Shown: piece after piece, positions 1 to 54,411 of the stretch
How the letters are laid out: the number at the start of each line of letters is the position of its first letter
How positions within the stretch are numbered: position 1 is the stretch's first letter
Notes under the pieces: generated by a model
The model's input: the letters and a program-made list of their open reading frames with translations, nothing else
Told to the model about the DNA's origin: nothing
Database searches by the model: none
Translations under genes and position numbers: made by a program
Source of the DNA: Lingula anatina
Taxonomy: Eukaryota > Animalia > Brachiopoda
Direction: 5' to 3'
Length of the DNA stretch: 64,000 bases
Assembly (NCBI GenBank): GCA_051362555.1
Contig: CM120640.1
Location: 36,847,967-36,911,966, forward strand

Positions 1-3000
1 AACGCTTGTCTGCATCCTGGGCAGAGCAGCCCTGTCTGATCAGAGTGGACAAGATTCCATCAGTCCTGGAATAAAAAGAAAAAAAAAATAATAGCATATC
101 CAGTAGAGCATAAAATAGGAGGAATATGATTTCATATATCAAATATACCAGTACTTACTAACCCTACTCACCTTACTCCAAAATTACTCATCATCAATGA
201 ATAACAGCAGTTAACAGCTACATGCATTGCTTTTACAGGCAGTAACAAAAGGAAAGAAAAAAGGAAAAAAAAACACTTAGTCTAGTAGTTCAAATGCAGA
301 CATATAAATGTGCCTACCATTCGTGTGTCATGAGATCAAACTCTCCATACAGCTGTCCCATAGTGATGGACTTGGGGTTGAGGATATAGGTGTGGGTAGC
401 CTCAAAGGGCACACCAGCTGGAGATGGTTCTCCCTTCAGTGAAGTCATGGCTTTCTGCAGGACCTCATAACACTAGAAATGAAAACAAAATGTGAAAATG
501 TGCTAAAACCATTTGCAATTAAAAGGACTCTTGTAGCATAAAAGGTAACTATGATTCTTGTACTATCACAGCATAAACTGATGACACTTCACTCCACAAC
601 TGTCCATAGTATATTATGGCATTTTCTATAATATGGCATTATTTTGTTTATATATCCTCTTAAATTTAATTTCAACTTTTTTTTTTATTTTGCAATCTTA
701 AATATAATGTATTCAAGGTCATACTTTTGTCTTTCCGGAACCAGTTGGCCCAACCAACATAAGTCCATGGCGCACAACAGTGGTCTCATAAAGCTGAATG
801 CACTTGTGTAGGAATCCATCCACTTCTTTGATGCCGAGTTTGACACAGGACTTGTTGAGGGCTTCACTAAGAGCTCCATAGTCAATAGGTTCCTCTCTAA
901 ATAAAAAATAGGCAATATTAGAGGTTCAGAAAAAAGGTACGAATCACAATCCAAGTACACTATATAGAAGTCTGAGGCATTCAGCAGTTAACAAAGTGAA
1001 CTGATAAAAGAAAGTTTTGAAGTTTAACAACTTGTAATGTACAAAGTTTTTGGTTCAACAATTTTTTCTATGCTTTCATTTCATCCATTTATCTAATTAT
1101 TTATTTATTTTTGAAAAAAAAATTAATAATGACTTAAATTTTTTAGGACATCTAAATATATAAAACATACTTGATGTTGGGGAAAAGATCTGATACAATG
1201 CCGTTGAAGAGTTTCAAATCATCTTGCAGGAACTTGGGCACATTTACATCTCTGATGGCTCTGAGAGCAATCAACTCTTCATCCATCTTGGGATTCTGTC
1301 TCTTCAAGTTGCCGGCGGCAGATATCACACTCTTCACAGCACGCATACCAAAGTCATAGTGATCCTGAAACCAGACATATACAACTTAAATGAATACACA
1401 ATATATAAAGTTAAAACTTAAAATGGAGATGTCATTTATCTTGAATTATCATCTTGGTCTCTATTTTCATCAAAATGGTAACAATGTTTATATATATAAT
1501 TGATTAACTTTAAAAAAAATTCTGAAATCTTGTAACAAGTTTTGCAAAGGAACTGCTGTCAATCATACTGAATTCAAACCCAAAACCCAAAACACTACAA
1601 AAAATAAAATAAAATAAACCACTTACCTGTGCACTAAGCTGTTCAGATGACAACTTGAAAGTTGTTGTGATTTTCTTGGAGAGGATCTTGGCATCAGAGA
1701 AACCAAAGGAGAACAAACTGATTTCTGCAATCAGGGCATAATCTGGCACCATCATAGCCACAGGACGGAACAGAGCCTGGAATACAAGGGTGTGTCTTTT
1801 TACTGGCCACAGTCTTATTGTTGTTTTTTCTTTTATCTACTTGCTTTTGAAACACCTACTTAAAACATGTCTTGTAGCAAAACACTAGAAAAAAAAATGC
1901 TTATACATGGATCCCTCTTCTATTTATTTATTTTTTTTTTGGTGGGTCAGTTATACTTTACTGACACTCCCAGATTCTATAGCCTGGCTGATGTCTTGAT
2001 TTCAGTGAACATTTCCTGCTGTTTACCTTCAAGTTGTCAGGCAGTTCTGTTCTGCCTGCATAGCCAGGGTTCATGGTGATGAACACAGCACAGGAATTCT
2101 TCAAAGCCAGCTCTACGCCTTCAAAGATGAACCTGTCCACCTATGAAACAGACACATTATTACATCACACGATGTGAACACATTGATATTTTCAATATCA
2201 AGTCATAATATCAATACAAAGCTATAGTAATATTGACCTTTATAGTATACCAAACTGTTTTGTGATTAAACTCAATTTTGACTCTAATATATTTTGTCTT
2301 AATTTATCAAAAATATGATACAACCATCCTTTTATTTGAAAATGCTATAAGTTTACAAAGTTGGGCATGCTGGTGATACATACACAGCATCTCCAGGCAA
2401 AACCATAAATAAACACAGGTAATCATAAATACATAGAAACACTTAAGTCTGTAAGTAAGAAGTGGATAATTTCTGCTAATTAAAATAATCAATAAAAATA
2501 ATAATTAAATATAATCTACATGCTAATGGGATGCTTCTACATGTATGTTGTCGAAGGAAGAAATAACTACCCAGCTGTCAGCCCGTATTTCTCTTCTCTA
2601 CCTACCTTAGCAATGAGTGCTTGCTGTATTTGGGTGATCTGCATGGCCACCACTGACAGCACCTCTATGTCAATACGGTTGAATTCATCAAAGCAAGCCC
2701 ATGCCCCTGAACTATAGAGGAAGGGAAAAGAGCTTGAAGTTATAACTACTGATTTGAAGCTACAAGCAAGAAAAGGGGGGTCAGGGATAGACAGGGTGAA
2801 CAAAATGCCCATAACCTGATGTTCTTTCCATGGTGAATCTTTTCCCAAAGTTGCAGACAAAATCATAGAGATTTATGGAATCAAATATTGAATTTAACCC
2901 CAATCTCAAATTAAAAAAAAAAGATAATCAAAAAATAATAAGATAGTAGCATGGCCATGCAAGTGAGGGTACTGCCTTGGGAAATACTACCTACAGATTG

Positions 3001-6000
3001 TAATGCAGTGTACAAGGTAATGGGGTAACCTGTAATCAATACATGCTATACACTATGCTATGATTGGTAGAGGTCTATAGGATAATCATGCAAGGATGCC
3101 AACTCTACATCCTAAAATGCTGATATCTTTTGCTAGACATGTTATCAACAATAGAACAACACCTGAAATAAAAAGGAATTAATTCTGAAAAATGGGTAAA
3201 ATACATGTAAATGTGTAGAGCTGGCAACCCTGAGTAGCTATACGTAGATCAGGTCTGGGGTGATAGTTGTACATGGAGAACATGCATATTGAAATATGCC
3301 TAAATATGCTACTGTCTAGCAAGTATGGAGAGCACCCTATGTCCAGACATATAGTGCCTACCCTTTGCTGTTGAGCTTTTTGAATGGTTGTGATCTGCTG
3401 AGCAACCACTGATAACACCTCAATGTCGATACGGTTGAACTCATCAAAACATGCCCACGCCCCAGCACTGGAAGTAGCACACCACAGAGAAACATAATCC
3501 AAGTGCAGTGCTCAAAACACAACACTTTTGTGCAAAAATTAATATTTTTTCTTTCAACACAAGGCTTTCTGAAATATGAGCAATTCTAAACAACATACCA
3601 TTTCAAAATTACTTCATAAATGAAAAATAAGTAAAGTTTAGGAAAAAAAGGTGGTGGAAATCAATATAAATTGCAAGCAAACCCCATGTACTCCAGTATG
3701 GTTTACGATACACAGTTTTGAATAGGGAATCCCAAATGCGACATACATTAATACAAACATACATTCAAACAAGTACCCAGTTTTTGCATATCCACAAATA
3801 GAAAATGCTTACATAAAATCAACCATATTTAAAATCTAATACGTAGCAATCTTTAGATCAATTAAATTACTTTTGTCAAACAAAATTTTGAGAAGCAAAA
3901 ATGAACCATGAACTTTTAAAGAATCACATGCTTCTGTCTATATGAACTATCAGCAGTCAGTCTATTATTTTCATCTAATCACCTTGCCAATCCTTTGAAG
4001 AATTTCCCCATAGCCATGAAGTCAAGCTGGTCAGAGCAGTTGAAGACCACACACTGAATGGCAAAAGCCTTGGCCAGATCCTTGGTGGTCTCTGTCTTCC
4101 CTGTCCCTGCAGGCCCAGCAGGGGCACCACCAAACTTGAGATGGAGGGCTCCAGTCAGAGTCAGGTAACATCTGAAATGGTTACACATTAGTTTGAATGT
4201 AGACACATATTTTTACCACCTGTATATGGAATCTCCACAGAATGCATATCCAGGTACAAGAACACTAAACAAATGAATAAATGGAAATAAATAAATAAAT
4301 AAATGAATAAATAAAATCATAAAAATAAATAAATAAATAATCTCATCACCATACCGATCAGTCAGTGGTGTAATAACCAAGCGCCCTGTGTTCCCCAGAT
4401 ATTCATAGCCGTACAAAAACTGGGCATTCACAGCCCGTGTGTACATGTTGTCATCTTCCAACCAGTAGTATCTGGAAACAGTACAAATATGAACATCACT
4501 TTCAAGGGCATTGTGCATAAGCATTATTACGAAAAAAAAGAAGAGATAACTTGCAATACATATTCTTCCATGAATTAAATCAAATCAATTACAACTTACA
4601 ATTAATAATAATATGTTATTTCAACTTTGATTAAGCATGTTTGAAGAAAACCTTCACCACCAAATCATTCAGTAACATCATGGGGTTTACGTAGGATTAA
4701 ATTTCATTTAGCTGAAAAGCTGGATAATCTTAAGCAATTTTTAATGAGATTAGTGATATCTCTTGCAAAACAGTAAAACATTTCACATTTTCCCAACCAA
4801 ATTAGAACAACCTTAGCATTTGGATAAGATTCTCTATACTAGGGTAAGCCAAGCTATCTTAACCTTTTGGTTCAGTTTTTCCATACCTCAACTGGCTGAT
4901 CCATTCAAAATCATTGACATTTTCCACTTTCTCTTTGACCATGTTTGCTACCACATCCCTGGCGTGGACCTCAATGACAATGAGAGCAGACAACACCTGG
5001 ATTCCAATACGTGTCAATGTCCCTCCTGTCACCAGGTTACGCAGGTCATCAAGCTGTGAAAACAGAAAAGAATCTTTGACACTGATGGCGAATAAGTGAC
5101 TAAAAATGCTGATCAATCAAAATGAAAGACCATACAGAAAAATGTGCATATGTAAAGTGATGTGAAGTGTGCACTAAGAAAAAAAAAAAAAAAAACAGAT
5201 GCATATCTTTTAATCTTTCTTCTTTTTAATAACTTTTTTGTTGAATTCTGGAAATATTTACAACTACATGTGTGTGCATGTCCCCCATTTACCTGACTTA
5301 GCAAGTTTTGAAACAGTCCAGGCAGATCTTTTCTCTCCAGTGCTGCTGACACCTCAGAAGTCCAGAATGTCTGACAGCCAGCTATGACAACCTGGCCAGG
5401 CCACTTGACTACCCACTCTGTCCTCGGGATCTGAAGAGAACACATCCAATCCAATTTTCTTATTAGTCTTATTCCTATCATATGGTATTATCTTTCTGTC
5501 TGTCAGAAAATATATGCTCGATATAAATAATAAAAAAATAAAACAAATAAAGGTCTCTGAAATCACATGATATTTTCTTTCTGTCTGTCGGAAAATATAT
5601 ACTCTTAACATAAATAATAAATAAATACATAAAATAAATACAGCTCTTACCTTTTCATAATCTTCCAAAGCATCTTTGATGATAAATCTGAGACTCTGCA
5701 TCATGACTCTCTCCACCTCCAGTAACCAGTCCTCCACATTGCCAGTGGGATACAGGGACTCCTTGAAACTCACTGATTCTCCTTCTCCAGAGTACATAGT
5801 CGTGATCTTCAGATCATCCTCAAATTTGAGCTGGAAAAACAAAAAAAAGCATGGTGGTGAAATAACAGAATTGTTAAAATAAATGCAATAATTTAAAGAG
5901 AACCTTTTGTGTAGATGGTTGATACCACCTTTTTCATCATATTATTCACTTCTTTGGAATTTTGAACATAATACAAATAGTGAATAGTTTCTAGAATGAC

Positions 6001-9000
6001 ATGTTTTCTACATTTGAAAACTTAAAAAAAAATTCTTTTTAATCATCAATACACGAGATATAAAGAAAAACCTGTTTCACATTATAGGTAAACAGTCTGC
6101 CATTTCTCACCTTGGCAATATTCTCAAAGCACTTTCTAAGATGAGGCTGTACAGCTGTAGGATCTTTGGTCTGAGAGAGAATCTCCAGCAGTTCATCATC
6201 AGACAAGAAGTAGAAGCGGGGGAAAGAATTTCTCTTGGTCTCCAGGTACTCACTCAGACCCTTCTGGACCTGCTCCAACAGTTTGTTACACTCCTTCAAG
6301 TTGTCTAACAGGCGGGCGTCAGGGCACAGTGAGATCACCTATAGAAATATAGAAGTGACATTCTTCAAATCTAAATAGTTGACTGATTATAAGCAGGAAT
6401 TGAATGTTGAAAGACAACTTAAATGTTATAATCTCCATTGTTTACATACTATATACCACACGGCTTTCAAGAAGCCAAGATCGAAGAAAATGGCAGCTAC
6501 ATAAGACCAGACAAAATAAAAATGTGCTTACCAAAAATAACACAATACACATACAAGCATAAGAACACACCAGTGTGCACATAGGACACTGGGACTAACA
6601 ATTTATACACATCTGTGCATGCATACACAAACCCTCACGCATAAATCCATACACGCACCTAAAATACAGAAACCGCTTTAACTATTAACATTTGTTCTGT
6701 ATCATAGCTTTGGGGCAGGATTTAATGTGGCAGAACATGAACAGGGTCTCAGGCTTACCTGTGGGTTGTCCCGTGCCTGCTTCATCAGCTTCCTCCAGAT
6801 TCTCTCCATGGTTTGATACCTCTTGCTCTCCACTGGCAACTGGCGGTTGATGTCCTCTGAGCTGAAGATGGGCTCCAAGTACAGCCAGGACCTCTGGCAC
6901 AACAGCCACTCATCAAGGACATCCTATCAAACACAAAACATGCAATCACCTATAGTTTCGTCTGCATGTTTGCTTGATGTTAAGCTATAACCAACGACCA
7001 GATATAACTCACATTTGAAGCCACAGAGAGTCAAATCATGTTCACTGCTTACAATACACTTGTAAGATACATACTTGTCAGCTGAAAGATTTTTTAAAAT
7101 CCCCAAGCAGCAAATCTGACAAAGAATACAAAATTTAAATGTTTATTCAAAATTGTTTTCTTATCCTCAACCAACTGCAATTGTTATACGGTGTATATAT
7201 TGCTTCATAGCTTACCTGAGTTGTTCTTAGTTTACTTTCCCATGTACTGATTCTCTCCTCAAAAGGTTTCTTGAATGGGGAGAAAGACATGCTCTGGGTC
7301 ATGACAATGTGATCATCCAAAAGCTGTGAGATTTCTTCTGATATTTTCACAATGTAGGTGCCCGTATCTTTATATGGCATCACTTCAAACAGCACTGGTG
7401 CCCATTCACCTTCCATCTTGTCAAGAGCCTGATAAATAGAAGTAAAAATTGTGATTTACTATAACATTCAGCTCAAGGTTCCATCCTCAGATATAATTAT
7501 TGCATGTGTAGAACATAGTCCATCTTTTTTTCCCCGCCATACAAAAAGCAGGAAAAATAATAGGAATTTAGCTCAATAAAGAGGAAGCTACTTAAAAAAC
7601 ATATTATAACAAATCTTTACAAAAGCTGATCAAAATAAGGACAATACAGTGCATTTTAAATAAATAAATTAATAATCCATCATTCACTTAAACATAAAAC
7701 CATATTTATTCAGAAGTTTACCTGTTCAATGGAGTATTCCTTCCCTGCTACCTCTGCCACCTTACTAATCTTTTCAATGTGATCTTGCAGTCTCATCTCC
7801 AGACACTTGGAGAAGGTCAGGGACTGTTTTGGACGCACTGGGAAACCAAGGTCATTTGACAGCTGCATACAGAAGAAAAATAGAACTGTCAATGAATGTG
7901 ATTATTATTGACTATGGAAGGCGAAATTATAAACAAGGGTTACAAAAGAAAATATGTAAAATTTAACTTTTAATGTGTATTTAATATCTAAAAGAAAGAA
8001 ATGGTCGAATGAATTTTTCAAACACTCCAACAGAACTAAGTTTGCACTTCAATCTGTCAAAAGAATTTAGCATTCCTTGCCTTCCCCTCTTCTTAATTAA
8101 AAGAAACTGTACCTAAATAAGGTTCTACTGACCTGCTCCCAATGCCTGTTCCTCATGCCTGGGTTTCTCAAGCCTTGGATAAGAGGGATATAAGGCCTGA
8201 ACTCTTCTATCATGCCTTTCACCTCTACTGCTACTTGCTGCACACCTGTAATCAGAAGATACACACAAATCAACCAGTGTCATTGGCATCTTAGCATTTC
8301 TATTACACAGATATACATTTGTAAGTATCTTGTGAGCATTACTGGCATTGCCTTAGTTCTTCTGCAAAACCATAAAATTTAGAAAAAAATCAACAAAGCT
8401 GAAACTTTGATGATATCAGTGGGGTTTGGAAATTAAAAATATACTGCACATATTATGTCATCCTTAACTGTCAATTCTATCCCATGTCTACTGTAAGTTT
8501 ATGACCATATCTCTGCAATGAGAAGCTATTTTCAAATTAAAAGATCCTACTGGTATTGAACGATCACTCCACCCTCAGGTCTGTGATGGCCATTTACAGA
8601 AAAAAAGGCGGGATTGCAAATTACAACTTAAAATTCAAACTAAAAGGCAATAACTTAACCTGCCTAAATATCTGGGAAAATATTTGAAGTTTTAAAGGGG
8701 CATGTGTATAACATCAGTTCTGCTAACTACAGGAAAATTGTGCAGGGGTTCTTGTGTATGTGTGTGCACATGTGCACATATCTAATACAGCATAACACAC
8801 AAATTGGACATCTTGGAAATGCATGCATTATACCCCGGCCATATAATAAAACATTAAAGGACAACATGATTGTATGAATTCAGAAACATTCAAGTATCTG
8901 TGCATCTATACAAGGGGAGTAATAAGTGCCATGGTGACCATATGATACTCACAAAACCCCCCATGTTCCTCCTTCACATATAATACTGAGTCAGCTGCAT

Positions 9001-10246
9001 ACAGTAAAAAGTTATATCTAAATAGTCTCCATTGCCTTAAAATCTCATTGTTTTCTACAAAAACTACAGTTCTTGCATCAAATACTGATCATAAGGAGAA
9101 AAAAAAACAAAGATAAAACTATCACAAAGTACTTTGCACATTTCTTTCAATTTCTATTTACTTCCTTTTTTCCCTAAAACTACAGGTTATGCTTCACCAC
9201 TAAATTTGAAAACACAACTCATACCAGGTATATCATTGAAAATCTTCACAGACTTGTGCATGGTTTTGTAGGAGTCATTCACATTCTTTTCCAGGCTTTC
9301 AGCATCAATGGATGTCAGCGGATCATTCATCCAGCTCTCATTCCAACGGAGCCATTCGGAGCATGTGATCCAGAGATTTCGGAAAGGTTCAAAGTCCTTC
9401 ACAAGCTTTATCAACTTGTCATACTAAAATAAAATTGGAAAATTGATGGTAGAGTTGGAGTATAGGGGAAAGGGAAAATAACTATAAACGACATGAATTT
9501 TCATGAATTTTCATTTTTAGTTCCTCACAAAAAATACTATTTGACGTGACCTTAAATCACTTTAGTATCATTTCCCCATTAATGAAACACTTCTTTGTGA
9601 ACAACATCACAAATTAGTTCAAATTTAGTGAACAATTGCATCAGATGTCCAAATAACCAGACCTCCACCCAGTACTCACGTTTGTGACAGGCAGACCAAA
9701 CAGGCGTTCCCTGTTGTTGTATTTGGCAGCATCCTCTTGAGCTTCCTTCAGCTGCTTATTTATTCTGCGTGCCTCATTGGCAATCTCATGTGCTCTGCCA
9801 ATGTCAGTGTGGGCAGCCATACCAGCAACAACCATCTAATCAAAGATGAGAAAAAGAAATGTGTTTTAAGATATTTATAACCTGCAATGACATGCAAATC
9901 ACATTTATATCACAAAAACCTTAGTGAAAAGCTAATGTTCCAGGTGCAAAATATTTTACGCTAACTTTAAAAGTAATAACAATGTCTTTTTTTGTAAACC
10001 TCTTTATACTGAAGAAAAGCAAAGAAAACCAATTCCACCAATGCTCAAAGAAAAAAAAATACAGCTTTCATCTATAGCCGCCACCCACCTGCAGTGTATC
10101 CAGTTTATCATTGAAGTTGGCCTGATCTAGGACCTGTAGCTTCCTAAACCTCTCCTCATCCTCCTCCAACTGGACCAGAGTGTTCTCCATCTGAGTCTCT
10201 ATCTTGTGTGGCCACCCAATAGCAGTCCACCTAGATACAGGAATCA

Positions 10247-10302
<56 letters not shown>

Positions 10303-13300
10303 AGTTTGTTGTCTATGTGGTGCACTTTTGTTGCTAATTTGTTGGCAAAAGTGGAGACCCAGTGTAGACAAGGTATGCAGCTCGTGGTAGTGATTCAACA
10401 GATATTTTTTTATTATTTGAAATTACATGATATCTATATTCTTACTTGGCATTGAAGTCATCAGTGGAAAGGTTATAGTAGAAATCTTCTATCAATTCAT
10501 AATCTGACATGGCCTTGTCAATGAGTTCCTACAAAGAAAAAGATATATAATAACCATTGTTACAAAATGAAGGAAAGAGGCCATAAAAAGTCACATGTAG
10601 AAAGTGAAGATAGTTTTATGTTCATTATTCAAAACAAAATAAAACACTGAATACAATTATTTGAGTGAAACTGTCACTTTTTGAATATTTCTTATCCTTT
10701 ACAGATACAACAAAACAATCTTTGGGGGACATAAATTGATCAAGTCTATTTGAATTAAGTGGGCAATTACCACAATTACCACAACTTACCTGATGTTCTT
10801 TCAGTTTTTCTGGTATTCCTTTCATCCACTCCCTCATCTCTGAGAGCTCCTCAATGCAGTTGGACTTGTCATAGAGTTTCCTGCTGATAGCCTTGAACTC
10901 TTCACAAGCCTTTAAATAATAAAGTGATGAATAATCAAATAATAAAATAATAATGGCAGAGGGTATTAAATAGACAGTGAGCAAAAACTGTGATTACATT
11001 TATCTCCGAGTATGGTAAAGCACATGAAATTTCACTTTGAAAAGATACTATACTTTAGATCATTTATAGCAGGTAAAAACTTTCCCCTACATGAGTGTTA
11101 GCTTGTAATTAACATTTTTTTATTTGGCACATTATTTTTGGATTATTTTTGGCACATAGTTAAAGGGTGATTGTATTTTAATATCCTGTTAAATGATAAC
11201 TAGCTTACATCATCTGCTTGTTTCCTGAGCTGTCTAGCTAACAGCTCCAGTACAGCATTACTCAGGTCTTTCCTCTTCTTTGCCAATGCCTTCCTCACTG
11301 TGTCTGTGTTGATCCAGAATGGTCCTATGACTATGGTGCTTGGGATGGTGGCTTCAATCACTTCCTTCTCTTTCAAGTGCATCTCTACTTCATGCTTCAC
11401 TTCAGCGGCTGATTTGCCTTGCTTTTCATACTCCCTTGAAGCAAACAAAAACACGGTTTACAGTTTTAAGATGGACCTGATAAGAGAGGCAAGTAAAAAT
11501 CAGAAGTCCCTTTTTAGCTGTAAATTTCCCATCATATCAACAATCAATATATCAAGATTCCACCACACACATTCAGTTGGTACAATAATAAAACAAAATG
11601 GCAATATCTTCTACTTACTTGACATATGCATTTATGTCCAAATTCATCAACTCCAAATGTTTCTCATACTCTCTGGCATAGGCTTTCATAGGAATGAGTG
11701 CTTTCTTTATGGCATTTGTCACTGTGGTTCTCAGTTCCTCCACAGGTGGTTCATGTTCTCCCACAGACTCCAGCAGAGGTGTGCCAGACCAGAATATGTC
11801 TTCCATGATGTACTGAATTAGAAAAAAAATCAGAAAATAAAACTTTACAATTAAATTTTTTGAAAATTGTGTGTGCATGCACGTGTGCCTGCATGTTCGT
11901 GTATAGATGTACATGTACATGCATAATTGTGAAGGGCATAAATGATATGTACTCATGAGTGAGCTCCTGCACAAGCATTTAATTGCTTTTAATCAATTCA
12001 CATACCTTTTCCAGCTGTGGCACACTCTGTGTGGATGAGATGCCTTTGTCAAACAAGCTGATCAGAGTGCTCTCAAAGCTGTTCAGATTAGTACTGTAGT
12101 GGGCGCCTTCTTTGTCCAGAAGCAGATCCACCAAAAACAGGGCATTCCTCTTGGGTCTGAATTAAGATCAATACTATACGAATCCCTTTCCCACGATCAT
12201 ACATTTTTATAATTGAAATTCAATATTTTAAATTGTCAGTTAGTGATTTAAAAATAGGAAAAATGAAATCAACTTCTTTAGTATATTAAGTTGATAAATA
12301 ACTTTCATGACCAACAATAAAATTACTTCATCGTTTTTAATGGCATCATTATCAACTTATTAACAAATAGGGACTGTGATTAAGTGTTCCTCACCTGTAG
12401 TTACTGGCTAAAAGGTCTGGTCCCCATTCTCTGTCTTCTTCATAAGACAAACAGGCATGGCAGGCATCCAGTACATTCTGGGTGTAAGAGACCAAAGAGT
12501 CCTGGACCAGGTACCTCAGGGAATCCTGCAATAACCAGTGCCAACAAGGTTTTAAACTAGGCAGTAAATGCTGTCAAATATACAGATTTCACTCTTCATA
12601 CTCCACAACAAATTTGAGTTTTAGTTTGCTATTATATTGATGAAAGGTCTATTATTCTGAGCAATTACTGTCCTTCAGTATAAAATTATAACATTACAAA
12701 AATGTGTTGAAGAGTTCCAATTTAATAACAGTAACTAAGAAAATAACTTTTTTGTTGGGAAACTGTGGTGGGCAAATTTTTGAAAAAAACTCACTTATTT
12801 TGAGTAATCTGATGTCATATTGGGGTTCGTGCAAACAGTTCAACTTATATGCCACCAATATTTTGAATTACCTGCATATTAAACTTGACCATCTCCATCA
12901 GCTTCTTGAGCTTGGAAATCTGGTACACATCCCAGTTGGTCTCGTGGATATTAAACCAGCCCTTCCCACTGTCCCTCAAGCTGGTCCTTATGGCAGCTCT
13001 CAGTGTGGTGATCCAGCTGTCCTTCAAAAACAGGGAAACCTGGAGAGAAAATAAAAGTCATAATTTGCAGAAACTGTTTTAACACAATAGATCTATATAT
13101 TTTCAGAATAATTGTGAAATTAAAGTAGTGATAAATGCACAAAATGCTTACCTGGGATGTGGCCTGACTTTGTGTCTGTTCAAACTCCTCAAGCCTCATG
13201 GGTTTACTCATAGGTAGATGGAAGAGGCACATAGCAGAGACCTTGTTACATTCAGTCCTGACTTTGCCAATGGCTGAGATACTCTCTTCTCTGGTCAGCA

Positions 13301-16300
13301 GGGAGTTGAAGGCAAACTTGTCATACTGCTCATCAAATGGGTATTCAGGTAAGTCTGTGACACAGCCTAAATAATGGACAAAAAGAACAGCAATATTTTA
13401 GAAATTCCTTCAAATAACCTAATTTGTCTGGAGTTTTCATTGGCACTGTGACAGTGACAGCGACAGTTACTGACCTATTTACACAATGGAGCTTAAAAAT
13501 TTCTGCAGGAGAAAAATTACAAAGTTTACCTTTGACAAAATGTTTGGAAGGAGAATACTTCTTATAGTACACAACATGCTGTAGAAAGCCCAACATACCT
13601 TTCTCTGGTATCACCTCTTTCACTGGCTCTGGGATAGTGACAAAGGCAAAGGTTGCAGGATCTTCTGCCACAGTTTTATCAAAGATGATCCGATTCATGG
13701 AGCGACAAAAATCAATGTTCACTTCTTTCTCCAACAGCTGTATGTAGTCATCCAGGCTATAATCAAATTAAAAATATTACCAAAGAATTCTCTCATCATA
13801 ATTGTTTTATCTTATTCTATTTTAGCACCTACTACAACAATAACTTCAGTAAATTAAACACTGAGGGACACATTGAGCTGTGCAGACAACCAATTACATG
13901 TAAATGATGTCACATTTTGTTAAAATATGACTTACAATATAAATAATTTTTTTTTCTGAAGAACTGACCTTTTGTCCTTTGACAGTGAAGAAGTACTTCT
14001 AGCCCAATCAGTCATTCTCTTCAATGATGCCTGGTCCAGTTCCCCCACTCCATCCATAGGCATACAGTCCAGGTACAGGTTGTAGCGGATCAGTGCTTCT
14101 GTGTGTTTGCGGCTTCTAAAAGCATGGCCGACACGCTTAACAAAATCTCGCGGATCCTCTGCCATAAATAGCAACCTAACTCTGGGAATCCAGTACTGGG
14201 AGGGCAAAGTAATCCTTGTGCCTGGAATAAAAAAATCAATATAAAAGGCTATATAGGCACCAATCATTACATATACAATATGAAACAGTCCATTTACACT
14301 TTCACCAAAGGGGTCTTTGTTTTTGTCATTTAAATTATATAAATTGTTTTTTTTTTATCAGTGTATCTTACCATCTTTTCTCTTCCCACCATTCACTATT
14401 GTCTTTCCCTTCTGATCTACAATCCTTCCATTTTCATCACATTTCTGCACCAGATACAGCTGTGTTGCTTTATCATAGTCCAACACTCCCACATCCACCC
14501 AGGCATAGGTAATGCTAGGGTCTCTGGGATCCACTGGAAGACAAAGTTTAATACAAAATCTAATCATATAGACACAAATGCAAATAAAGATAAAAATACA
14601 TCAGTAATAGTATTTAAAAGATAAAGATTTAGACACATTATAATTCCTTGGTGTTCAAGGGGTAGTTACCAAAATTTCCAAGCAATTATTTCTTTTTCTA
14701 TTTACAAGAGCAAAACCTGAATTATTAAAGCGCATAATAGAACATAAACATGTGAATAACTTTATATGCATAATATAAACATACAATCATGCACATCATC
14801 AGTGGAAGGCAACAAGGCTTTGCCAGGGACAGGCATTCTCTTTCCATCTTCCTTTCCTAATCTAATCCACTCGTGGGGTGTGCGGCAATCAAACTCTTGG
14901 TCATCAAATATCTCCAGTGGTAAATAAGGTGGAAAGGGAGCTGGATCCTTCAAATCAGCATTCAATATAACATTGTTGTTTCCATTTGTCAACATTTTTG
15001 GCATCAGCATGCTGCTGTCTATGCACTCCTTGGCAAGCAAGGTCTTTAAATTCTGGCTCTCATACAGCCTCTTTCTCCTAAAAAATTGCAATTATAAATA
15101 TTACTAAAGGAAGAGTTTTATAAAATACCCAGAAGGTTAAAGTGTTAAAGGGGTGAATTCCAACACTAAATACTTCCAAACAGATTTCAAGTAAATTGTT
15201 GTTTGTTTTAAATCAGTCACATTTACCTTTCAATTTCTATCTTTCTTGGACACTGTCCTGGAATGGTATAGTAGGGTAACTGGACTTTGGGTTGAAATGA
15301 CTTCACTGGAAAGTCCTGCAAAAACAAAAATACATGTCAGCATTAAATTTTTATGAAATAAACACCAATCTTGTCTGATACTTATACTATACGAAAAGAT
15401 GCTCTCTCTCTCTCTCTCTCAAACACACACACATTGTAATTCTACCCATTTTTCTTTCTCTCTCACAGACGAAACTAGATTATAGGTATTTCATTTCTGT
15501 TTTAGGAGCAGTAATCCAGATATATTTGTAAACTTACAGATATGGTTGTTATCTCTGTGGATGGTCCATACGTGTACTCCTGAAGTTGTGCCTGTATGTC
15601 CTCTGGTTTAAAATCAACCCCAGTAACTGAAAATGTTAAGTTTACATCAATCTTACATAAAAGTCTGATACTTTGAATCCAAGATTTGCCACTATACAAC
15701 AAAATGCGAAAATAAATAAATAATAAATTAATAAAATAAAATAGAATAATAATAAATTAACTGGACAAACACACTTAAAAAATGTTCATTTTGACAAGCA
15801 CTTGACTTCAATTTCATAATATGGTTCTCACTGAAAACTTGCAAGTGATTTTTTTTTATATTTGATATCAATTATATGCTTTGGCTAGATTTACAGTAAA
15901 TACAGAAAATAATTCTTCTTGCAAAAATTGTAATAATGTAGTTGCACATGCAGAACAGTAGGTACCCGTAAGTAAAAACATGTTTGGGTTGATTTCAAGT
16001 CTCCTTCATTTCAAAGAATACATATATGTACTTACCTTTTGGAGTGTGTTTTTCTTTGGCAACATTCCAAAGAGTATCCTGTTCCACAGTCTCAGGCCCT
16101 TGCAATACATTCTAAAATTAAATACAATGTTTTTCAAATTATTAGTATTAAAAGTTTGGGCACCAAAACTTAATACAAATAAATTTACAACATAAGTGAA
16201 TAAACCTGGATCCCATAATGTCTCCACTATGACTGTCCCTCCAATAAGCTGCCAGTCTAGCTACATGTGTAAGTATAATTTTCTTATCTTATTACTTCTC

Positions 16301-16798
16301 CATTAATTAAGCAAACCTTTATTTCAAAAACCTTGTTTATCAGAAAGCGGTAGCTAAGAATGAACCTCTTGTGCCCTTAGTGAATTCTGCTTCAATGTAA
16401 TAGTAGTTAAGAAGCATTATAAAAATTAATGATATAGTAAGCAATTCTGTTGGAGAGAAAATCAGGCCAAATACATGTACTTGTGAAGCAACTTTTCTGT
16501 TTATTTATTTCAACTGCTCGTCCAATTTATTTTGTGCTTACTGAACTCCACAACATATTACCAGATGTGTTTCTGAGTGTAATATCAAGAGCACAGAATT
16601 GTACCAAAATAAAAAAATGCAAATTATACTTACCCCTAATCTTTCTTGGGCACCTGTTCCTAAAATATCTGAATAAAACCCTCTTTGTTTGATCTCTGGG
16701 TACTTCTGTCCAGAGACGGATGTTTTTGCTGTATTAATCTGTGTCCGATTGGAGGAGAAAGGCCTCCCATGGGAGCTTTTGGTTGCTCTGCTAGACAT
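1..16798 (-). CDS. DNAH1: Axonemal dynein heavy chain, DNAH1 type (inner-arm, single-headed); 5' part only, ~36 coding exons, continues past position 1
   Basis: GT-AG exons chain in frame from ATG 16798 (MSSRATK...). N-terminal [30 protein letters not shown] resembles the DNAH1 tail. Linker [21 protein letters not shown]1 Walker [15 protein letters not shown] (exon ending 3983), Walker [33 protein letters not shown]2 region [13 protein letters not shown] and [13 protein letters not shown]. Confidence 0.92.
2606..2711 (-). CDS. DNAH1: DNAH1 AAA1 Walker-B exon, copy B (mutually exclusive candidate)
   Basis: 106 nt, tag| acceptor and |gtaggt donor, same phases as copy A; encodes (S)[35 protein letters not shown]. 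Confidence 0.85.
3362..3467 (-). CDS. DNAH1: DNAH1 AAA1 Walker-B exon, copy A (mutually exclusive candidate)
   Basis: 106 nt, cag| acceptor and |gtaggc donor, phase 2 in and phase 0 out; encodes (S)[35 protein letters not shown]. Confidence 0.9.
10251..10300. repeat. (ATT)n microsatellite in a DNAH1 intron
   Basis: Uninterrupted tattattatt... run; source of the poly-Ile ORFs in the track. Confidence 0.95.
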
Positions 16799-45695: not shown

Positions 45696-48600
45696 TTACG
45701 CTGGTTTACACAGTAAATCCAACACCATGTGATCAACGTGTGGTGCATAAGACTTGACATGCTCTAAGTGAAGTATCTCTGTTTTCCACTGACCTCCATG
45801 TGTATTATGTAAAATGTCTCTGATCTGATCAGCTGTCATTACAGCCCATGTTTTCCACTGGTGTAATAACTTTTTATTACAAATTATTGATGTATTGTTT
45901 GAAGTAGCTCTTTCATCATAACCATTGTGCTGTTTAACATGCTCTCCAGTCAAACTTTTTCCTAAATGTTTTGAGCCACAAAGGCATGTGACTGGAACAG
46001 ACATTCCTGTTAAGCTGGGAGACCCAGTGTCTTTTGCTATATCCACAGAATTACACTCGTTACTTTCAGCCATGTTCTGAAGAGTGTTCTCCATTGATTT
46101 GGTGTTTTCACACCTTTGTAATCCACCAGCAATTTGAGAAATACCAAAACCTGGGCCACTTTTAGTCTTATTGCAAGGGCAGACACCTGTTGAATAACAT
46201 TGAGACCATTGCAACTGAAGATGCTCTTGTGCTGATGTTTCATTTAAGTCACCATTTCCATGTTTTCTAATAGGATTAGCTGTTTCTTTTCTAGAATCAT
46301 TCCTGTGTTCAGAAGTCTTGGTTTCAACATTGTGGTGTATATGTAGTATTCCTCCTGAGTGTGACTTCAGTGCTGCACATGCTACTGGCCATCCCTCCTC
46401 CGAGCTGGGAATCAACCCAAGGTTTACCCTGTCTGCAACACCCTTAGGACATACCTTGAACAACAGCAGATATAACATATAACAGTATAAGGTGATTGCA
46501 AATAAACTCCTGAAAACGTGTTTATCTGGGCTCACACTTGTATTTGCTTTTCAGTCAAGACTACCTTATAGAAAATACCATTCCATAAAAAGTTTTAATC
46601 TATGATCAATTGTCAAACAAAATAATTAAATACTTTACTTAAATAAAAATATCTTTGCCATATTATTCACACATTAAATATATTACTGCACTTGCAACAA
46701 CAAAAAAATATATTGCCTACTTGTCTGTTGTCTCCCTGATGAACAATACACCTCTCTGCCACTCCATTCAGATGTAGGTTCTTCCTCAATGCATCTGCTG
46801 CATCTGGATTCCACTCACAGGCATGAACCAGCCTGGCTTTGGCATGGATCAAGTATGGCAAAGTGAAGTAACCTATGCCTGGATCACGTAACAAATAATT
46901 TATTACTTTCATTGGTAAGTGTGACTGTTTTCTTCCAATCCTTGAAAAGTTACTGGTGTGATAATCTGTATGTATCAGAGCTTAGTTGAGACTTTACAAG
47001 GAAGGCAACAGTTATATCTAATCCCTTGTCTTTATTGCAACTGCAAACAGCAAAATTATAACTGCTAAATTACAACAACTTCACAGTGCTTGTGTAGGTT
47101 ATAACCAATGTGTGTAAATAGTTTAATGGCTAAATTAAAATAAAGATTAATCTATTTTCTTTTCTAATTGGAAAGACTTTATCGTTTCTGAAAACCTCAT
47201 GGTATATCCTTGGTAAAATCATTGTTTTCCCTCACATCTAAAAATCATCTCAATTGCCCAAAAAGCTTTACCTGCATATAAATCCACAACAGTCTCTCCC
47301 TCACAGTGGAAGTGAGCCACTCTTAGTTTCTCTGTAATGTTTCCTGCACTAAACATACACCTGGTAACATCATAGCTGTACCTGGAAACAACAGTCACAC
47401 AAGAATATGATACATGTAGCGAATAAATACAAACAGGGTATACAGACTTCAACTGTAACTTTCTTTTACACCCTTTTATCAAACTTTAAATTTCCTGATA
47501 TTCAGCCACTTCATGACATTTGCTACTTGTACAGCAATCTTAAGGAGTACAAACTGTGTTACTGTGTGAAATTATATTTATTTCCCTCTCAAGAAAGAAA
47601 TCCAAAAATAATGACATCTCACTTGATATGATTGTCAATGTGAGTGACCCATCCATCCTTTCCAAGCAGCAGTTCTACCTGTGGAGTCCGGAAACCATCT
47701 TGGGATATAATTGACTTCTTAGCAAGTCTTTTGGCACCAAGGATTCTTGCCACAGTCTCCCACAACTGTGGACCTGAAATCAAATATGTACACTGACCAT
47801 TACTATATGTACAAACATAATTGTTACATGCTGGTATGAATTTTTCACATCCAGATACCAAACTAAAAAGCTGATGTTTATCTAAATTGTTTAAAAACAA
47901 CTTGCAAATATATTCACTTTGAGGAAAAGTGCAAAGAAACATTACTAACATCATAGTGACACACTAATATTTAGGAATTATTTACCACAATGTCTCCAAA
48001 AATCATTTTTGAAACAATGATCTGGCAGAACCACCATGTCTCCATGCTTTTCCCAGTGTTTAGGAATATCATCTTCCCATGTTTCACTATCTCTAACCCC
48101 TGCACTCTTCTTTTCATTATTCACTATTGCCAATAGATTGCCTAATGTTTCCCGGAGATGCTCCCAAGGTGGCTTTAACAAGTCCTTTTTTGAAGGTGAA
48201 AGATTGATTACATCAAGCGTGTACTCAATAGACGCTGGTAGCCCCCCTGTGGTCAGGGTCAGCATCTTGTAAGCTTCACTGGTAATGGGAATGGCCACCA
48301 GATCTTCGTCAATCTTTTTCAGACTATACCGGCTGTCCCATAATCTGCCAATTTCCAAATGTTTCCTTTAAGAAAAATAAAATAAATCAATAAAGGATAA
48401 CTACCCCCCCCCTCCAAAAAGATGTAATAATTAAGTAGAATGTTAATTTCATAATTAAATTATTTTAATGGAGAAACAAGACTCTAACTGTTGAGAGCAG
48501 GTGATATGACTGTGAGATGTGAACCCTGTTTTTTGCCGTGCGATAGTTATGGCAAGGAAGCAAGAAAGGTCTCTGTTTCGGATTTACAAAGTAATTTTTA

Positions 48601-51900: not shown

Positions 51901-54411
51901 TGCACTAAAGATAAAATAAGACGATGAAATAACTGTAAGGCCTGTTTTAGAAGATATAATATCAATACAGTACACAGTAAGTACTGTTAAGTTTGTAAGT
52001 GTGTGAGTTGATGTTTGATCCCTTCCGGCTGATTAATGAGGTCTGATTTTTTTCTGTGTGTTTGTTGTAGTTAAACAGTATTCTGACATTGATATAAATT
52101 GCAAAAATTTTGGACTTACTTGTACTTTAAAGGTATACTGTGATGAAAAAACGGGTTAAAACTATCCGTTAGGTGCCCAAAAGTCATTTTTGAGTAATGA
52201 AAAAAAAGTTCTTACGTTTATTTAGTTTTTAAAGCCGATTTTATGCAGGTGTGAATGTAGTTTATGATACTCCCGCGTGGTGGCGCTTTAAGGCGAGTGA
52301 CGTCACTAGCGTCAAGGCTCAGAAAGCCATATTCGATTCAGCTATCCGCTTGCTAGCAGTGCAAACTAAAAGCGATACACGCAATTGATCACTACATGAT
52401 CATTTATAAATTCAAACTTTTGAAGATAGATACACAAAAGAAGATGAATTCCCCACGTGGTTATCATTTATTAACCAACAAAATACACCAAAACTATGTT
52501 AACAGTAAAGGTTTGGAAGCAGGGCAGCGAACACAGTTTTTCACACATTGCCCATCTGTCGCGTCGGCTGAACGTTCTTATCCCGACTGATAAGAGAAAG
52601 TTACCTAATACATGCAGGTGTGACAGCTAACATTATTTTTCACACCCGTGCAGTTTACCAGTGTCATTCCGGGAGAGCCAGGTCAGTGGACAAAAGGCCA
52701 AAGATATCGGACTGATAGCATCGGACACTACATTTCACACCTCTGCAACTTACCTCGCTACTTCTGCCTTACACGTGATCAGTGCAGCAGTATGTCGAGT
52801 AAAAATTTGATTCCACTATCATGTTAATATTAACGTTTTCACTAATAAAACCAAAAAATTCGACAACGTAATTCTGCTACGAACTATTTTTTGGGCTCTA
52901 GAAGCTGCTCTCTTCTTCTTGACGGCCGCATCATGCACACATCCTACAGGTAAGACTCTCGTCGGCAGCGCTCTGGCATTTACTGTCGCATTTTGGTACT
53001 CCGAAAAATCGAATATACTGGGTACAGCATCATCTTTTAGTTTTCTCCGTGCTTTTCCACCCCACAATTCAGCTCGCAGGTCACGTACGAAGCATTCCGG
53101 CTCGAAGTGGTCGCTACAGATCCTCGCGTGTTTTGACACTGTGCTGGGATTTTTTAACTTCAGAGAATTGAGCCAAATTTTACGTTTAGCGGCATCCGCA
53201 GGCAGGATATAATAGCAGATGTCTTTCTTATTGTAACCTACATTACGGCACCCGGGAGCAACACAACTTTGCGGCATTTGTTTTTCTGACACCTGGATGT
53301 TTAGTCGCCTACTGCATAGTATATACTATTACTAGTACAGCTGTGGGAAGCTACTCCACGGGTTACGTTACTAGAAACTGACCAACAGAATTTTCTCATC
53401 TAAATCTCATCTTTTCTCTCTAAAACTTAAAAAGAACAATTTTTTGACGTGGATTTATAGTTTTTATACTGTAAAAAAAGCAGTGAACGCTATGTGTTCC
53501 TAGAGCGCAGTAGGCCTTTAAACATCCCTTCTAACTTACCCCCAAATCACAAAAATTGCCATGTCCAAGCTGTACAGTTGTTCATTCCCTCTTGAGTGAC
53601 TGTGGTTATGGGAGACCAGAAAACATACTAGGCTCTTCTGAAATTTTCCCCTATATCATTATTATTCAGTATTCATTGCTAATCTTGTCTGCTGCCCATA
53701 GGGAATGATAAATGAGAACATTGGGAGAAATGAAATGAATTCTTCTGCTCATTAGTGGCCCCAATTCACCCAGGATGCACCTATAAATTGAGAAAGGCTT
53801 TAGTAAGATTTAAAGTATTTCTTTCTGGCGCATCATCTTAATCATCGAACTATCATATAACTCTAAGACTTTCCTGTTGACAGTCAAATTGAATTGATCT
53901 CCCTCTTTGGGATGCTGATTAAAGAAATCATTTTTGGGTTTAATCTGTTGAAAGATCAGATTTCTGAGGGCACAAAATTGGCTTTGGGAAACAATTTTTG
54001 CCTTTTAGAAGTTTGCTATAAAGGTGGCTTTCCGTCATAAAGTATTTTTGTCCAAATTTTTGTCATGGCTGCAAAGCAGGAAGAAATTCAAGAAATGCAG
54101 TACGAGGTGGCCCAGCTGCGCCACGAGGCAGCGTTAGAAAGATGGCCGGTATCCAAGGCCCTCAAAGAGTAAGCCTATGTTAAAAATTTCTCTTATCTGT
54201 CAAAAGCTGAGGGAGTTGTATCAACTCGAGTGAGTTTTGTGTTTGAAATACTTTGTAAGTATGTATTTTGTGTAGAATTTATTTGTGATCTTGTTATTTT
54301 TTTAGGCTTCTGACATACACAAATCAAAATGCACCCAGTGATGTGCTCTTGAATGGAATCTCACAGTCAGAAAATCCTTTCCGTGATCAGAAGAACTGCA
54401 CTATACTGTAG
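48951..54411 (+). CDS. Heterotrimeric G-protein gamma subunit, isoform a (exons 48951-49045 + 54306-54411; 66 aa)
   Basis: Exon 1a MSSQVQALQKQVEQLRHEASIRRIPVSQAIQ(E) with phase-2 donor GA|gtaagt; in frame with exon 2 LLTYTNQNAPSDVLLNGISQSENPFRDQKNCTIL*. No other NPF/CAAX exon was found by eye. Confidence 0.8.
52131..53517 (-). mobile_element. Kolobok-like DNA transposon derivative (internally deleted)
   Basis: TTAA TSD (52127-52130, 53518-53521); short imperfect TIRs AGGTATACTGTG vs AGGCCTACTGCG; CpG-rich relative to host intron; contains a THAP ORF; no DDE domain seen. Confidence 0.7.
52819..53277 (-). CDS. THAP (C2CH zinc-finger) domain ORF within the Kolobok-like element
   Basis: MPQSCVAPGCRN...ILP...KIW...ICSDHF...LKDDAVPSIF: complete C-x4-C, P, W, C-x2-H, F and AVPTIF-box signature, followed by basic KKKRAASR. 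Confidence 0.85.
   Translation of the reverse strand: MPQSCVAPGCRNVGYNKKDICYYILPADAAKRKIWLNSLKLKNPSTVSKHARICSDHFEPECFVRDLRAELWGGKARRKLKDDAVPSIFDFSEYQNATVNARALPTRVLPVGCVHDAAVKKKRAASRAQKIVRSRITLSNFLVLLVKTLILT
54017..54023 (+). promoter_or_regulatory. Candidate TATA box for G-gamma exon 1b
   Basis: TATAAAG 48 bp upstream of ATG 54065; no clear splice acceptor just before the ATG. Confidence 0.45.
54065..54411 (+). CDS. Heterotrimeric G-protein gamma subunit, isoform b (exons 54065-54168 + 54306-54411; 69 aa)
   Basis: MAAKQEEIQEMQYEVAQLRHEAALERWPVSKALK(E) with GA|gtaagc donor, a 137-nt intron, then the NPF motif and CAAX box CTIL. Typical GGL-domain pattern. Confidence 0.88.

What the first reader, a model, noticed from the sequence alone, without database searches (positions are those of the whole stretch)
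2606..3467. Mutually exclusive duplicated exon at the catalytic AAA1 Walker-B site of DNAH1
Seen: two exons of exactly 106 nt, with the same splice phases and intact AG/GT sites. The [21 protein letters not shown] core is identical in protein but differs at many synonymous positions, while the following helix differs ([13 protein letters not shown] vs [13 protein letters not shown]). Since 106 is not a multiple of 3, including both or neither shifts the frame. Established: AAA1 is the main ATP-hydrolysing site of dynein. Inference: synonymous divergence with amino-acid conservation implies both copies are under purifying selection, so one gene could make two motors with different AAA1 properties (e.g. 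sperm flagella vs epithelial or larval cilia). Mutually exclusive exons are known in some dynein genes, so novelty for this exon needs checking.
Basis: partly seen in the sequence, partly recalled or inferred. Interest (0 to 1): 0.75.

Follow-up and report, generated by a model that had tools for sequence, protein, structure and literature searches.

The report
Ancient swappable exon in ciliary dynein
This animal's gene for a cilia and sperm-tail motor (DNAH1) carries two side-by-side versions of one exon in the motor's ATP-burning core, a pair also found in snails, clams and worms; only one fits per message, and the choice likely tunes the motor for different kinds of cilia, which is untested.

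Summary
Two 106-nt minus-strand exons (A 3467-3362, B 2711-2606) lie between the same DNAH1 exons. Either one keeps the frame; both or neither breaks it. Synonymous sites are saturated, yet codons 2-22 encode the same 21 residues, so both copies are constrained. A is identical to mammalian DNAH1; B differs at residue 1 and at 7 of the last 13. In 4 shallow RNA runs of unknown tissue B is spliced (6 junction reads); A was not seen spliced. The pair is not local. Tandem copies occur in 13 of 47 fetched loci (those placed on a tree are spiralian) and in an annelid gene model. RefSeq holds both isoforms for 8 molluscs. Coral-like and vertebrate-like loci have one copy. Catalytic residues are the same in both copies; the changes sit on one flank of the following helix, and B is the more hydrophobic in 13 of 14 pairs. 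Verdict: a real, old mutually exclusive exon pair, a new member of a known kind, already in automatic annotation and not found described in 7 paper searches. Tissue use and function are untested. The scan's notes held only a different pair, in dynein-1.

The parts
1..16798 (-). 5' part of a DNAH1 (inner-arm dynein d / DHC8) gene of a spiralian animal; start codon near 16798; the gene runs off the window at position 1
   Evidence: tblastn of named DNAH1 proteins gives about 35 collinear exon hits from 16798 to 2, about 70% identity to limpet and nemertean DNAH1; tree places it in the spiralian clade
3983..4171 (-). [quoted passage not shown]
   Evidence: RNA joint 3983 to 2711
3362..3467 (-). 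Copy A (5' copy): Walker B plus the following helix; 35 of 35 residues identical to mammalian DNAH1; not seen spliced in 4 runs
2712..3361 (-). 650-nt intron between the copies; ordinary GT-AG type, too long for simple steric exclusion
3214..3232 (-). 5' arm of a predicted RNA stem in the A-B intron (18 of 19 pairs on the sense strand, two of them G-U)
3091..3109 (-). 3' arm of the same predicted stem
2606..2711 (-). Copy B (3' copy): same Walker B core, derived and more hydrophobic helix end; spliced in RNA
2027..2140 (-). Constitutive downstream exon (beta-hairpin insert and the sensor-I region; these labels are recalled)

Best explanation
This is a tandem-duplicated exon pair in DNAH1 of which only one copy keeps the reading frame; copy B is spliced into RNA here, both forms are annotated in molluscs, and the pair likely arose once in an early spiralian and likely lets one gene build two inner-arm motors with the same catalytic residues but a different helix surface, for different cilia. 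Shown: the geometry; constraint on both copies; B spliced here; tandem copies in other spiralians; isoform pairs in RefSeq. Inferred: a cell-type splicing choice picks the copy; messages with both or neither carry an early stop and would be removed by nonsense-mediated decay; B's more hydrophobic helix flank would pack differently against a neighbouring part of the motor (linker C-terminus or AAA6 small domain) or a partner protein, changing coupling or rate rather than the chemistry of hydrolysis. My single best guess on tissue is B in body or larval cilia and A in sperm (about 0.4 on its own).
For: Frame logic and intact splice sites. Saturated synonymous sites with a frozen core in the window and, mostly, in 8 other loci (core pN 0.02-0.06 in the six two-copy loci, 0.17-0.19 in the two three-copy loci). 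B junction in 6 reads over 3 of 4 runs. 13 of 47 loci hold 2 or 3 copies with AG/GT sites; the 8 of them placed on a tree fall in a spiralian clade, SH-aLRT 98. An annelid model (Paralvinella) reads through both copies. RefSeq has both types in 8 molluscs; 5 equal-length isoform pairs differ at 6-8 residues, all inside this exon. 8 of 15 B copies, from gastropod, bivalves and annelid, form a supported clade (96/93), and a clade of all 15 is not rejected (p-AU 0.27). In 8 of 8 cases with known order the 5' copy ends in Arg like mammals and the 3' copy does not. B is more hydrophobic over residues 23-35 in 13 of 14 pairs, and the variable positions point to about 102 degrees on a helical wheel, against 292 for the helix's hydrophobic face. 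The laid runs have low DNAH1 depth and show only B, which fits a somatic default (weak inference).
Against: No spliced read to copy A was listed in this species (58 reads laid in all; joints under 3 reads are not listed). The B-to-downstream joint was not listed either. Tissues are unknown. The window's own B is not inside the supported B clade, and its closest row by identity (91%) is an unnamed non-spiralian protein, P0278. Anthozoan single copies are also B-like, so B-type residues are easily reached by convergence. Met at position 23 also occurs in some A copies (abalone, L016). One spiralian lineage has A alone over 2.3 and 4.1 kb down to the next exon (L045, L005). Only one type per species is annotated in 26 of 30 clusters examined, including limpets, whelks, periwinkle, pulmonates and Lineus. 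RefSeq isoforms are automatic models whose read support I could not see. The fold model is poor (mean pLDDT 47) and gives no contacts. Nothing here measures motor behaviour.
Confidence: 0.7

Rival explanations
1. Both copies are real alternatives, but the exon was duplicated several times independently in spiralians and the second copy drifted each time towards the residues common in other inner-arm dyneins.
For: 35 columns cannot resolve the tree; B needs 2 changes on the free tree and only 4% of bootstrap trees hold it as one group. The three-copy lineage shows that re-duplication happens. B-like tails occur in single-copy corals and in DNAH3. Convergent tandem exon duplication is reported for other genes (PMC9741552, abstract and passages).
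Against: Same order in 8 of 8 cases; a near-identical B tail shared by abalone, venerid clams and annelid-like L043 (clade 96/93); no second copy in 10 of 10 coral-like and vertebrate-like loci that hold both flanking exons.
Confidence: 0.15
2. Both copies are kept because each must stay a working dynein exon, but the isoforms are functionally near-equivalent; B differs because of relaxed constraint on an exposed helix face.
For: The changes fall on the face opposite the hydrophobic one. B varies much between lineages (mean 8.4 differences from the window's A, against 2.1 among A copies). Some lineages have one copy.
Against: Two redundant copies are not expected to last through synonymous saturation in several phyla. 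A is almost invariant from Trichoplax to mammals at the very positions B changes, and B's change has a consistent direction (13 of 14).
Confidence: 0.09
3. In this species copy A is a recently silenced remnant and B is the only exon used.
For: 0 A junctions against 6 B junctions; depth 0 in bin 3289-3397 in all 4 runs.
Against: A has intact sites of ordinary strength (rough matrix), no stop, and 35 of 35 identity to mammals despite synonymous saturation. 0 of 6 only bounds A's share below about 39% in these samples.
Confidence: 0.05
4. The second copy is an assembly artefact or an allele placed in tandem.
For: None beyond the general possibility; such duplications exist in other models (P0001, P0210).
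Against: 71% identity, unduplicated introns, RNA junctions that skip A to reach B, and the same pair in many other genomes.
Confidence: 0.01

Closest known systems
RefSeq DNAH1-like isoform models of molluscs (e.g. Haliotis rufescens X3/X4, Mizuhopecten yessoensis X6/X7, Argopecten irradians X1/X2, Mercenaria mercenaria X10/X11)
   Same: Same gene, same 35-residue segment, an A type and a B type swapped in equal-length isoforms.
   Different: Automatic annotation only; I found no paper on the pair. The window's B tail differs in sequence from these B tails.
Mutually exclusive exon in Schistosoma mansoni cytoplasmic dynein DHC1 (PMC3228551, passages; cited in PMC5100056, passages)
   Same: Equal-length duplicated exon inside a dynein heavy chain gene of a spiralian.
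   Different: Cytoplasmic dynein, not the axonemal DHC8/DNAH1; the passages seen do not give the position. PMC5100056 says some genes have alternative motor-domain splice forms without listing them, so its author may have seen this pair.
[quoted passage not shown]
   Same: One motor gene, ancient duplicated exons in the motor domain, gained in protostomes and lost in some lineages; the best model for how this works.
   Different: Actin motor with tuning known for arthropods; here a ciliary microtubule motor with no functional data.
Sperm versus somatic dynein paralogues of mammals (DNAH8 vs DNAH5; PMC8754002, passages)
   Same: Different cilia types use different heavy-chain versions.
   Different: Done by whole-gene duplication of outer-arm dyneins; here it would be done by one exon of an inner-arm dynein, a class rarely duplicated (PMC5100056).

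Membership tests
Tandem-duplicated mutually exclusive exons (criteria of PMC3228551 and PMC5740500) | Neighbouring homologous exons of equal or similar length | tested here: met
   106 and 106 nt, 75 of 106 identical, adjacent
Tandem-duplicated mutually exclusive exons (criteria of PMC3228551 and PMC5740500) | Same splice phases, intact sites, frame kept by either copy | tested here: met
Tandem-duplicated mutually exclusive exons (criteria of PMC3228551 and PMC5740500) | Junction reads from each copy that bridge the other copy | tested here: inconclusive
   Met for B (6 reads skip A); none listed for A in 4 shallow runs. Both types exist as RefSeq isoforms in 8 molluscs, read support unseen.
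Tandem-duplicated mutually exclusive exons (criteria of PMC3228551 and PMC5740500) | No productive joint inclusion | tested here: met
   A+B shifts the frame and stops within B; no A-B joint listed (low depth)
Tandem-duplicated mutually exclusive exons (criteria of PMC3228551 and PMC5740500) | Tissue- or stage-biased use (common, not required) | not testable with these tools
   Run tissues are not given
DNAH1 / DHC8 / inner-arm dynein d | Best match to DNAH1 among dynein heavy chains, including the N-terminal tail | tested here: met
   119.6 bits to DNAH1 vs 101.3 to DNAH12 for the upstream exon; copy A 60.4 vs 48.8 for the next best; tail exons match DNAH1 orthologues
DNAH1 / DHC8 / inner-arm dynein d | Intact AAA1 Walker A and Walker B in both isoforms | tested here: met
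   Both spliced forms translate with the motifs intact; both exons match Pfam AAA_6 positions 84-117
Docking-site/selector (competing RNA pairing) control of exclusive exons | One intronic element pairing alternately with two partners, conserved across species | tested here: not met
   No region pair stands out consistently across 7 loci. The window has a strong stem inside the A-B intron, but its possible second partner in the downstream exon is not above shuffles (8 of 60).
Steric or U2/U12-incompatibility control of exclusive exons | Donor-to-branch distance under about 50 nt, or mixed U2/U12 sites | tested here: not met
   650-nt intron with several AG dinucleotides within 60 nt of B's acceptor, and ordinary GT donors; inter-copy introns of 420-1635 nt in six other two-copy loci. 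Branch points were not mapped.

The most novel reading that the evidence does not exclude
Since before molluscs and annelids split, spiralians have run a splicing switch in the core of inner-arm dynein d: sperm use the universal copy A and body or larval cilia use a hydrophobic-faced copy B, so the one helix after Walker B is a natural dial for ciliary beat, and one lineage has expanded it to three settings.
Probability: 0.35. Interest if true: 0.72.

Novelty: new member of a known kind. Interest (0 to 1): 0.52.

Why it matters
How one axoneme plan gives the different beats of sperm, gill and larval cilia is an open question. Mammals swap whole outer-arm genes, while DNAH1-class genes are rarely duplicated. 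Here evolution has varied one helix in an otherwise identical 4,200-residue motor and kept both versions across phyla. That points to an unstudied surface of AAA1 as a tuning site and gives a clean two-variant test in oysters, mussels, scallops or polychaetes, whose tissue RNA is public. The kind of mechanism is known from myosin and dynein-1, so the surprise is moderate.

Tried and rejected
No whole genome is held for the window, so no genome-wide checks were possible. No RNA holder was listed in the index; 4 of 9 same-species raw-read runs were laid. Competing docking/selector pairing was tested over all region pairs in 7 loci and was not conserved; 5 of 67 pairs had at most 2 of 60 shuffles as high, with no pair recurring except upstream-intron-with-exon twice. 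A stem in the inter-copy intron is strong in the window (0 of 100 shuffles; the best of 16 control introns reached z 1.4) but only partly echoed elsewhere (L042 1 of 100, L026 4 of 100, L023 9 of 100, L043 6 of 60, L016 76 of 100, L046 90 of 100), so I keep it as a lead only. The stem region is not a repeat elsewhere in the window. A splice-strength matrix from the gene's own introns was noisy (several boundaries mis-called) and showed no consistent A/B difference across loci. AlphaFold on a 351-aa homologue gave mean pLDDT 47, so no fold search was run. Double motifs in Exaiptasia P0001 and sturgeon P0210 are larger duplications in those models and were not counted. A link of B to ciliated larvae was considered and dropped: Octopus models carry a B type and many gastropods are annotated with A only. 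Two structure papers were not held. Searches for a paper on this pair found none. File 1 of the PMC5100056 supplement could not be searched, and most subscription papers and the author's sequence database are outside the library.
Full report
Observation. The minus strand holds the 5' part of a DNAH1 gene, from a start codon near 16798 to beyond position 1 (about 35 collinear exon hits). Between exons 4171-3983 and 2140-2027 lie two 106-nt exons, A (3467-3362) and B (2711-2606), each with AG and GT. Either alone gives an open frame; both or neither gives early stops. They share 75 of 106 nt: 14 codons identical, 13 synonymous, 8 non-synonymous. A splice-anchored motif finds just these two places (0 of 100 shuffles with 2 matches), and the introns are not duplicated. 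The gene is DNAH1 by best match to solved chains. The organism is a spiralian: about 70% identity to limpet, nemertean and abalone DNAH1, inside a spiralian clade at SH-aLRT 98 and outside the sampled gastropod-bivalve clade. I did not place it further.

Selection and polarity. Over codons 1-22, 11 of 15 synonymous sites but 1 of 51 non-synonymous sites differ (p 1.4e-8), so the duplication is old and both cores are constrained. Copy A equals three mammalian DNAH1 chains at 35 of 35 residues, and nearly the same sequence occurs in Trichoplax, insects, flatworms and deuterostomes. A is therefore the ancestral type and B the derived one. B's tail resembles other inner-arm dyneins such as DNAH3.

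RNA. The index listed no RNA holder but offered 9 raw-read runs with the same species label. Four were laid on 1000-4250, reading about 6, 6, 25 and 6 percent of each; 58 reads were laid. The joint 3983-2711, which skips A, was seen in 6 reads (4, 1 and 1 in three runs). No joint to A was listed, and the bin over A's 3' end had zero depth in all four runs; the little depth at A's 5' end in one run continues into the intron, and in another lies in the opposite orientation. The B-to-downstream joint was not listed (listing needs 3 reads). Tissues are not given. So B is shown to be used; A is neither shown nor excluded (0 of 6 bounds its share below about 39%).

Related DNA. One scan of metagenome contigs with the motif gave 47 loci. 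Thirteen hold more than one copy (L003, L011, L016, L017, L023, L025, L026, L027, L038, L042, L043, L046, L047), and every full-length copy found has AG/GT at 106 nt. These are not 13 independent lineages; several are near-duplicates. Sixteen loci hold both flanking exons: 6 are multi-copy and 10 single-copy (8 coral-like, 2 vertebrate-like). Of the 47, 15 were put on a tree made without the exon's own columns; the 8 multi-copy ones all fall in the spiralian clade, L016 with Mya (99), most others unresolved. L045 and L005, also spiralian, have A alone down to the next exon, and L006, L008, L021 and L031, which carry the same peptide, show none upstream, so at least one spiralian lineage has a single copy. 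The other single-copy contigs are too short to tell.

Named proteins. A Paralvinella (annelid) model reads through both copies. Thirty clusters were opened (at most 15 members listed each, so 15 of 18, 15 of 58, 15 of 30 and 15 of 34 for the four largest). Four show both types within a species: scallops, abalone, mussels and venerid clams, 8 species in all (Mizuhopecten yessoensis, Argopecten irradians, Haliotis rufescens, Mytilus trossulus, M. galloprovincialis, M. edulis, Ruditapes philippinarum, Mercenaria mercenaria). Five equal-length isoform pairs differ at 6-8 residues, all within the exon. Octopus has a B type in two species and a divergent A type in a third. The other 25 clusters, including all deuterostome, cnidarian, placozoan and flatworm ones, and limpets, whelks, periwinkle, pulmonates, Mya and Lineus, show one type; absence from an annotation does not show absence from the genome.

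One origin or several. I labelled copies by order where genomic and by likeness to mammals for RefSeq pairs. In 8 of 8 ordered cases the 5' copy ends in Arg and the 3' copy does not (this residue is also part of the donor site). Met at position 23 is in 10 of 15 B, 2 of 15 A and 0 of 144 non-spiralian representatives. On a 35-column tree, 8 of 15 B copies from gastropod, bivalves and annelid form a clade at 96/93, and holding all 15 together is not rejected (p-AU 0.27), which does not show a clade. Against: the window's B is outside that clade, its closest row by identity is an unnamed non-spiralian protein, and corals have a B-like single copy. One origin at or before the mollusc-annelid split is the best reading for the core group; membership of the window's B in it is likely but not shown.

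What changes in the protein. Walker B and the first part of the helix are the same in both copies (0-2 differences over residues 2-22 in 14 pairs, against 5-9 over residues 23-35). A low-confidence model of a homologue (mean pLDDT 47; 62-66 here) puts exon residues 15-33 in one helix followed by a beta-hairpin; calling it H3 of the AAA1 large domain is recalled. Variable positions 23, 26, 30, 33 and 34 lie on the side opposite the helix's hydrophobic face, and B is more hydrophobic in 13 of 14 pairs (pairs are related, so this is not 14 independent trials). [quoted passage not shown] A preprint (10.1101/2024.05.01.592044, passages) places phosphate release at the sensor-I loop, which by my reading is encoded by the next exon. 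I infer that the swap alters packing or coupling near the site, not the catalytic chemistry; which surface it touches was not tested.

How exclusivity is kept. Steric exclusion and U2/U12 incompatibility do not fit (650-nt ordinary intron). [quoted passage not shown] Both copies have sites of ordinary strength on a rough matrix. The A-B intron holds an 18-of-19-pair stem with two G-U pairs on the sense strand (-30 kcal/mol), above 100 of 100 shuffles, while none of 16 control introns of the gene exceeds z 1.4. Six other loci echo it only in part, and no conserved competing pairing was found. It is a lead, not a mechanism.

Comparison with what is known. Exclusive exons in motor domains are known for muscle myosin (PMC3912159, abstract) and for Schistosoma cytoplasmic dynein (PMC3228551, passages). 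PMC5100056 (passages; one of its supplement files could not be searched) notes unnamed alternative motor-domain splice forms in dynein genes and says DHC8 genes were duplicated only in restricted branches. Seven searches (listings only, apart from the papers named) found no description of this pair. PMC9741552 has no mention of dynein in its main text. PMC4427456 (passages) and PMC8754002 (passages) show that sperm and somatic cilia use different axonemal parts, which makes a tissue split plausible but does not test it. The scan's own notes gave no sequence look-alike and two notes on a different exon pair in vertebrate dynein-1.

Verdict. A real and old mutually exclusive exon pair in axonemal dynein DNAH1, shared by several spiralian phyla, present in RefSeq as isoforms but apparently undescribed. 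New member of a known kind; interest 0.52. The tissue split and functional tuning remain inference and are cheap to test.

Noticed in passing
L011 1326-1910, L025, L027 5777-6370, L047, L003: A low-GC, small-intron spiralian lineage has three copies of this exon. The first has changes next to Walker B; the third is itself split by a short intron after the Asn of the motif and has extra cysteines, yet keeps the Asp-Glu and the 106-nt coding length.
   Followed up: partly
L023, L026, L038, L010: In this lineage both copies have left the mammal-like tail (both have Leu at position 32), so the ancestral type has been lost while two copies are kept.
   Followed up: partly
L001, L013, L015, L018, L028, L030, L034, L040; Nematostella and coral proteins: Anthozoans have one copy, but with a B-like tail, unlike Trichoplax and most bilaterians.
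   Followed up: partly
window 3091-3232, minus strand: Strong predicted RNA stem in the A-B intron; its 3' arm also resembles 20 nt of the downstream exon (2106-2125), giving a possible second pairing of -25 kcal/mol that is not above shuffles.
   Followed up: partly
window 2761-2800, minus strand: A second pyrimidine tract and AG lie 49 nt upstream of B's acceptor; using it would shift the frame. One run has unspliced depth there.
   Followed up: no
Mytilus DNAH1 isoforms P0444, P0505-P0514, about residue 2025-2045: At least three different short inserts, or none, at one loop of the motor domain, i.e. further alternative micro-exons in mussel DNAH1.
   Followed up: no
Octopus P0533 vs P0451, P0531: O. 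bimaculoides is annotated with a strongly diverged Arg-ending tail, and O. sinensis and O. vulgaris with a B type; cephalopods may keep both copies with A now the fast-evolving one.
   Followed up: no
window about 24200-44600 (+), 45700-48400 (-), 52819-53325 (-): Neighbouring genes: a long coiled-coil gene, a TYW2/TRMT12 methyltransferase gene and a THAP-domain reading frame; all look ordinary.
   Followed up: no
P0001 (Exaiptasia), P0210 (Acipenser): These database models repeat a large part of AAA1; probably assembly or annotation duplications, not exon pairs.
   Followed up: partly
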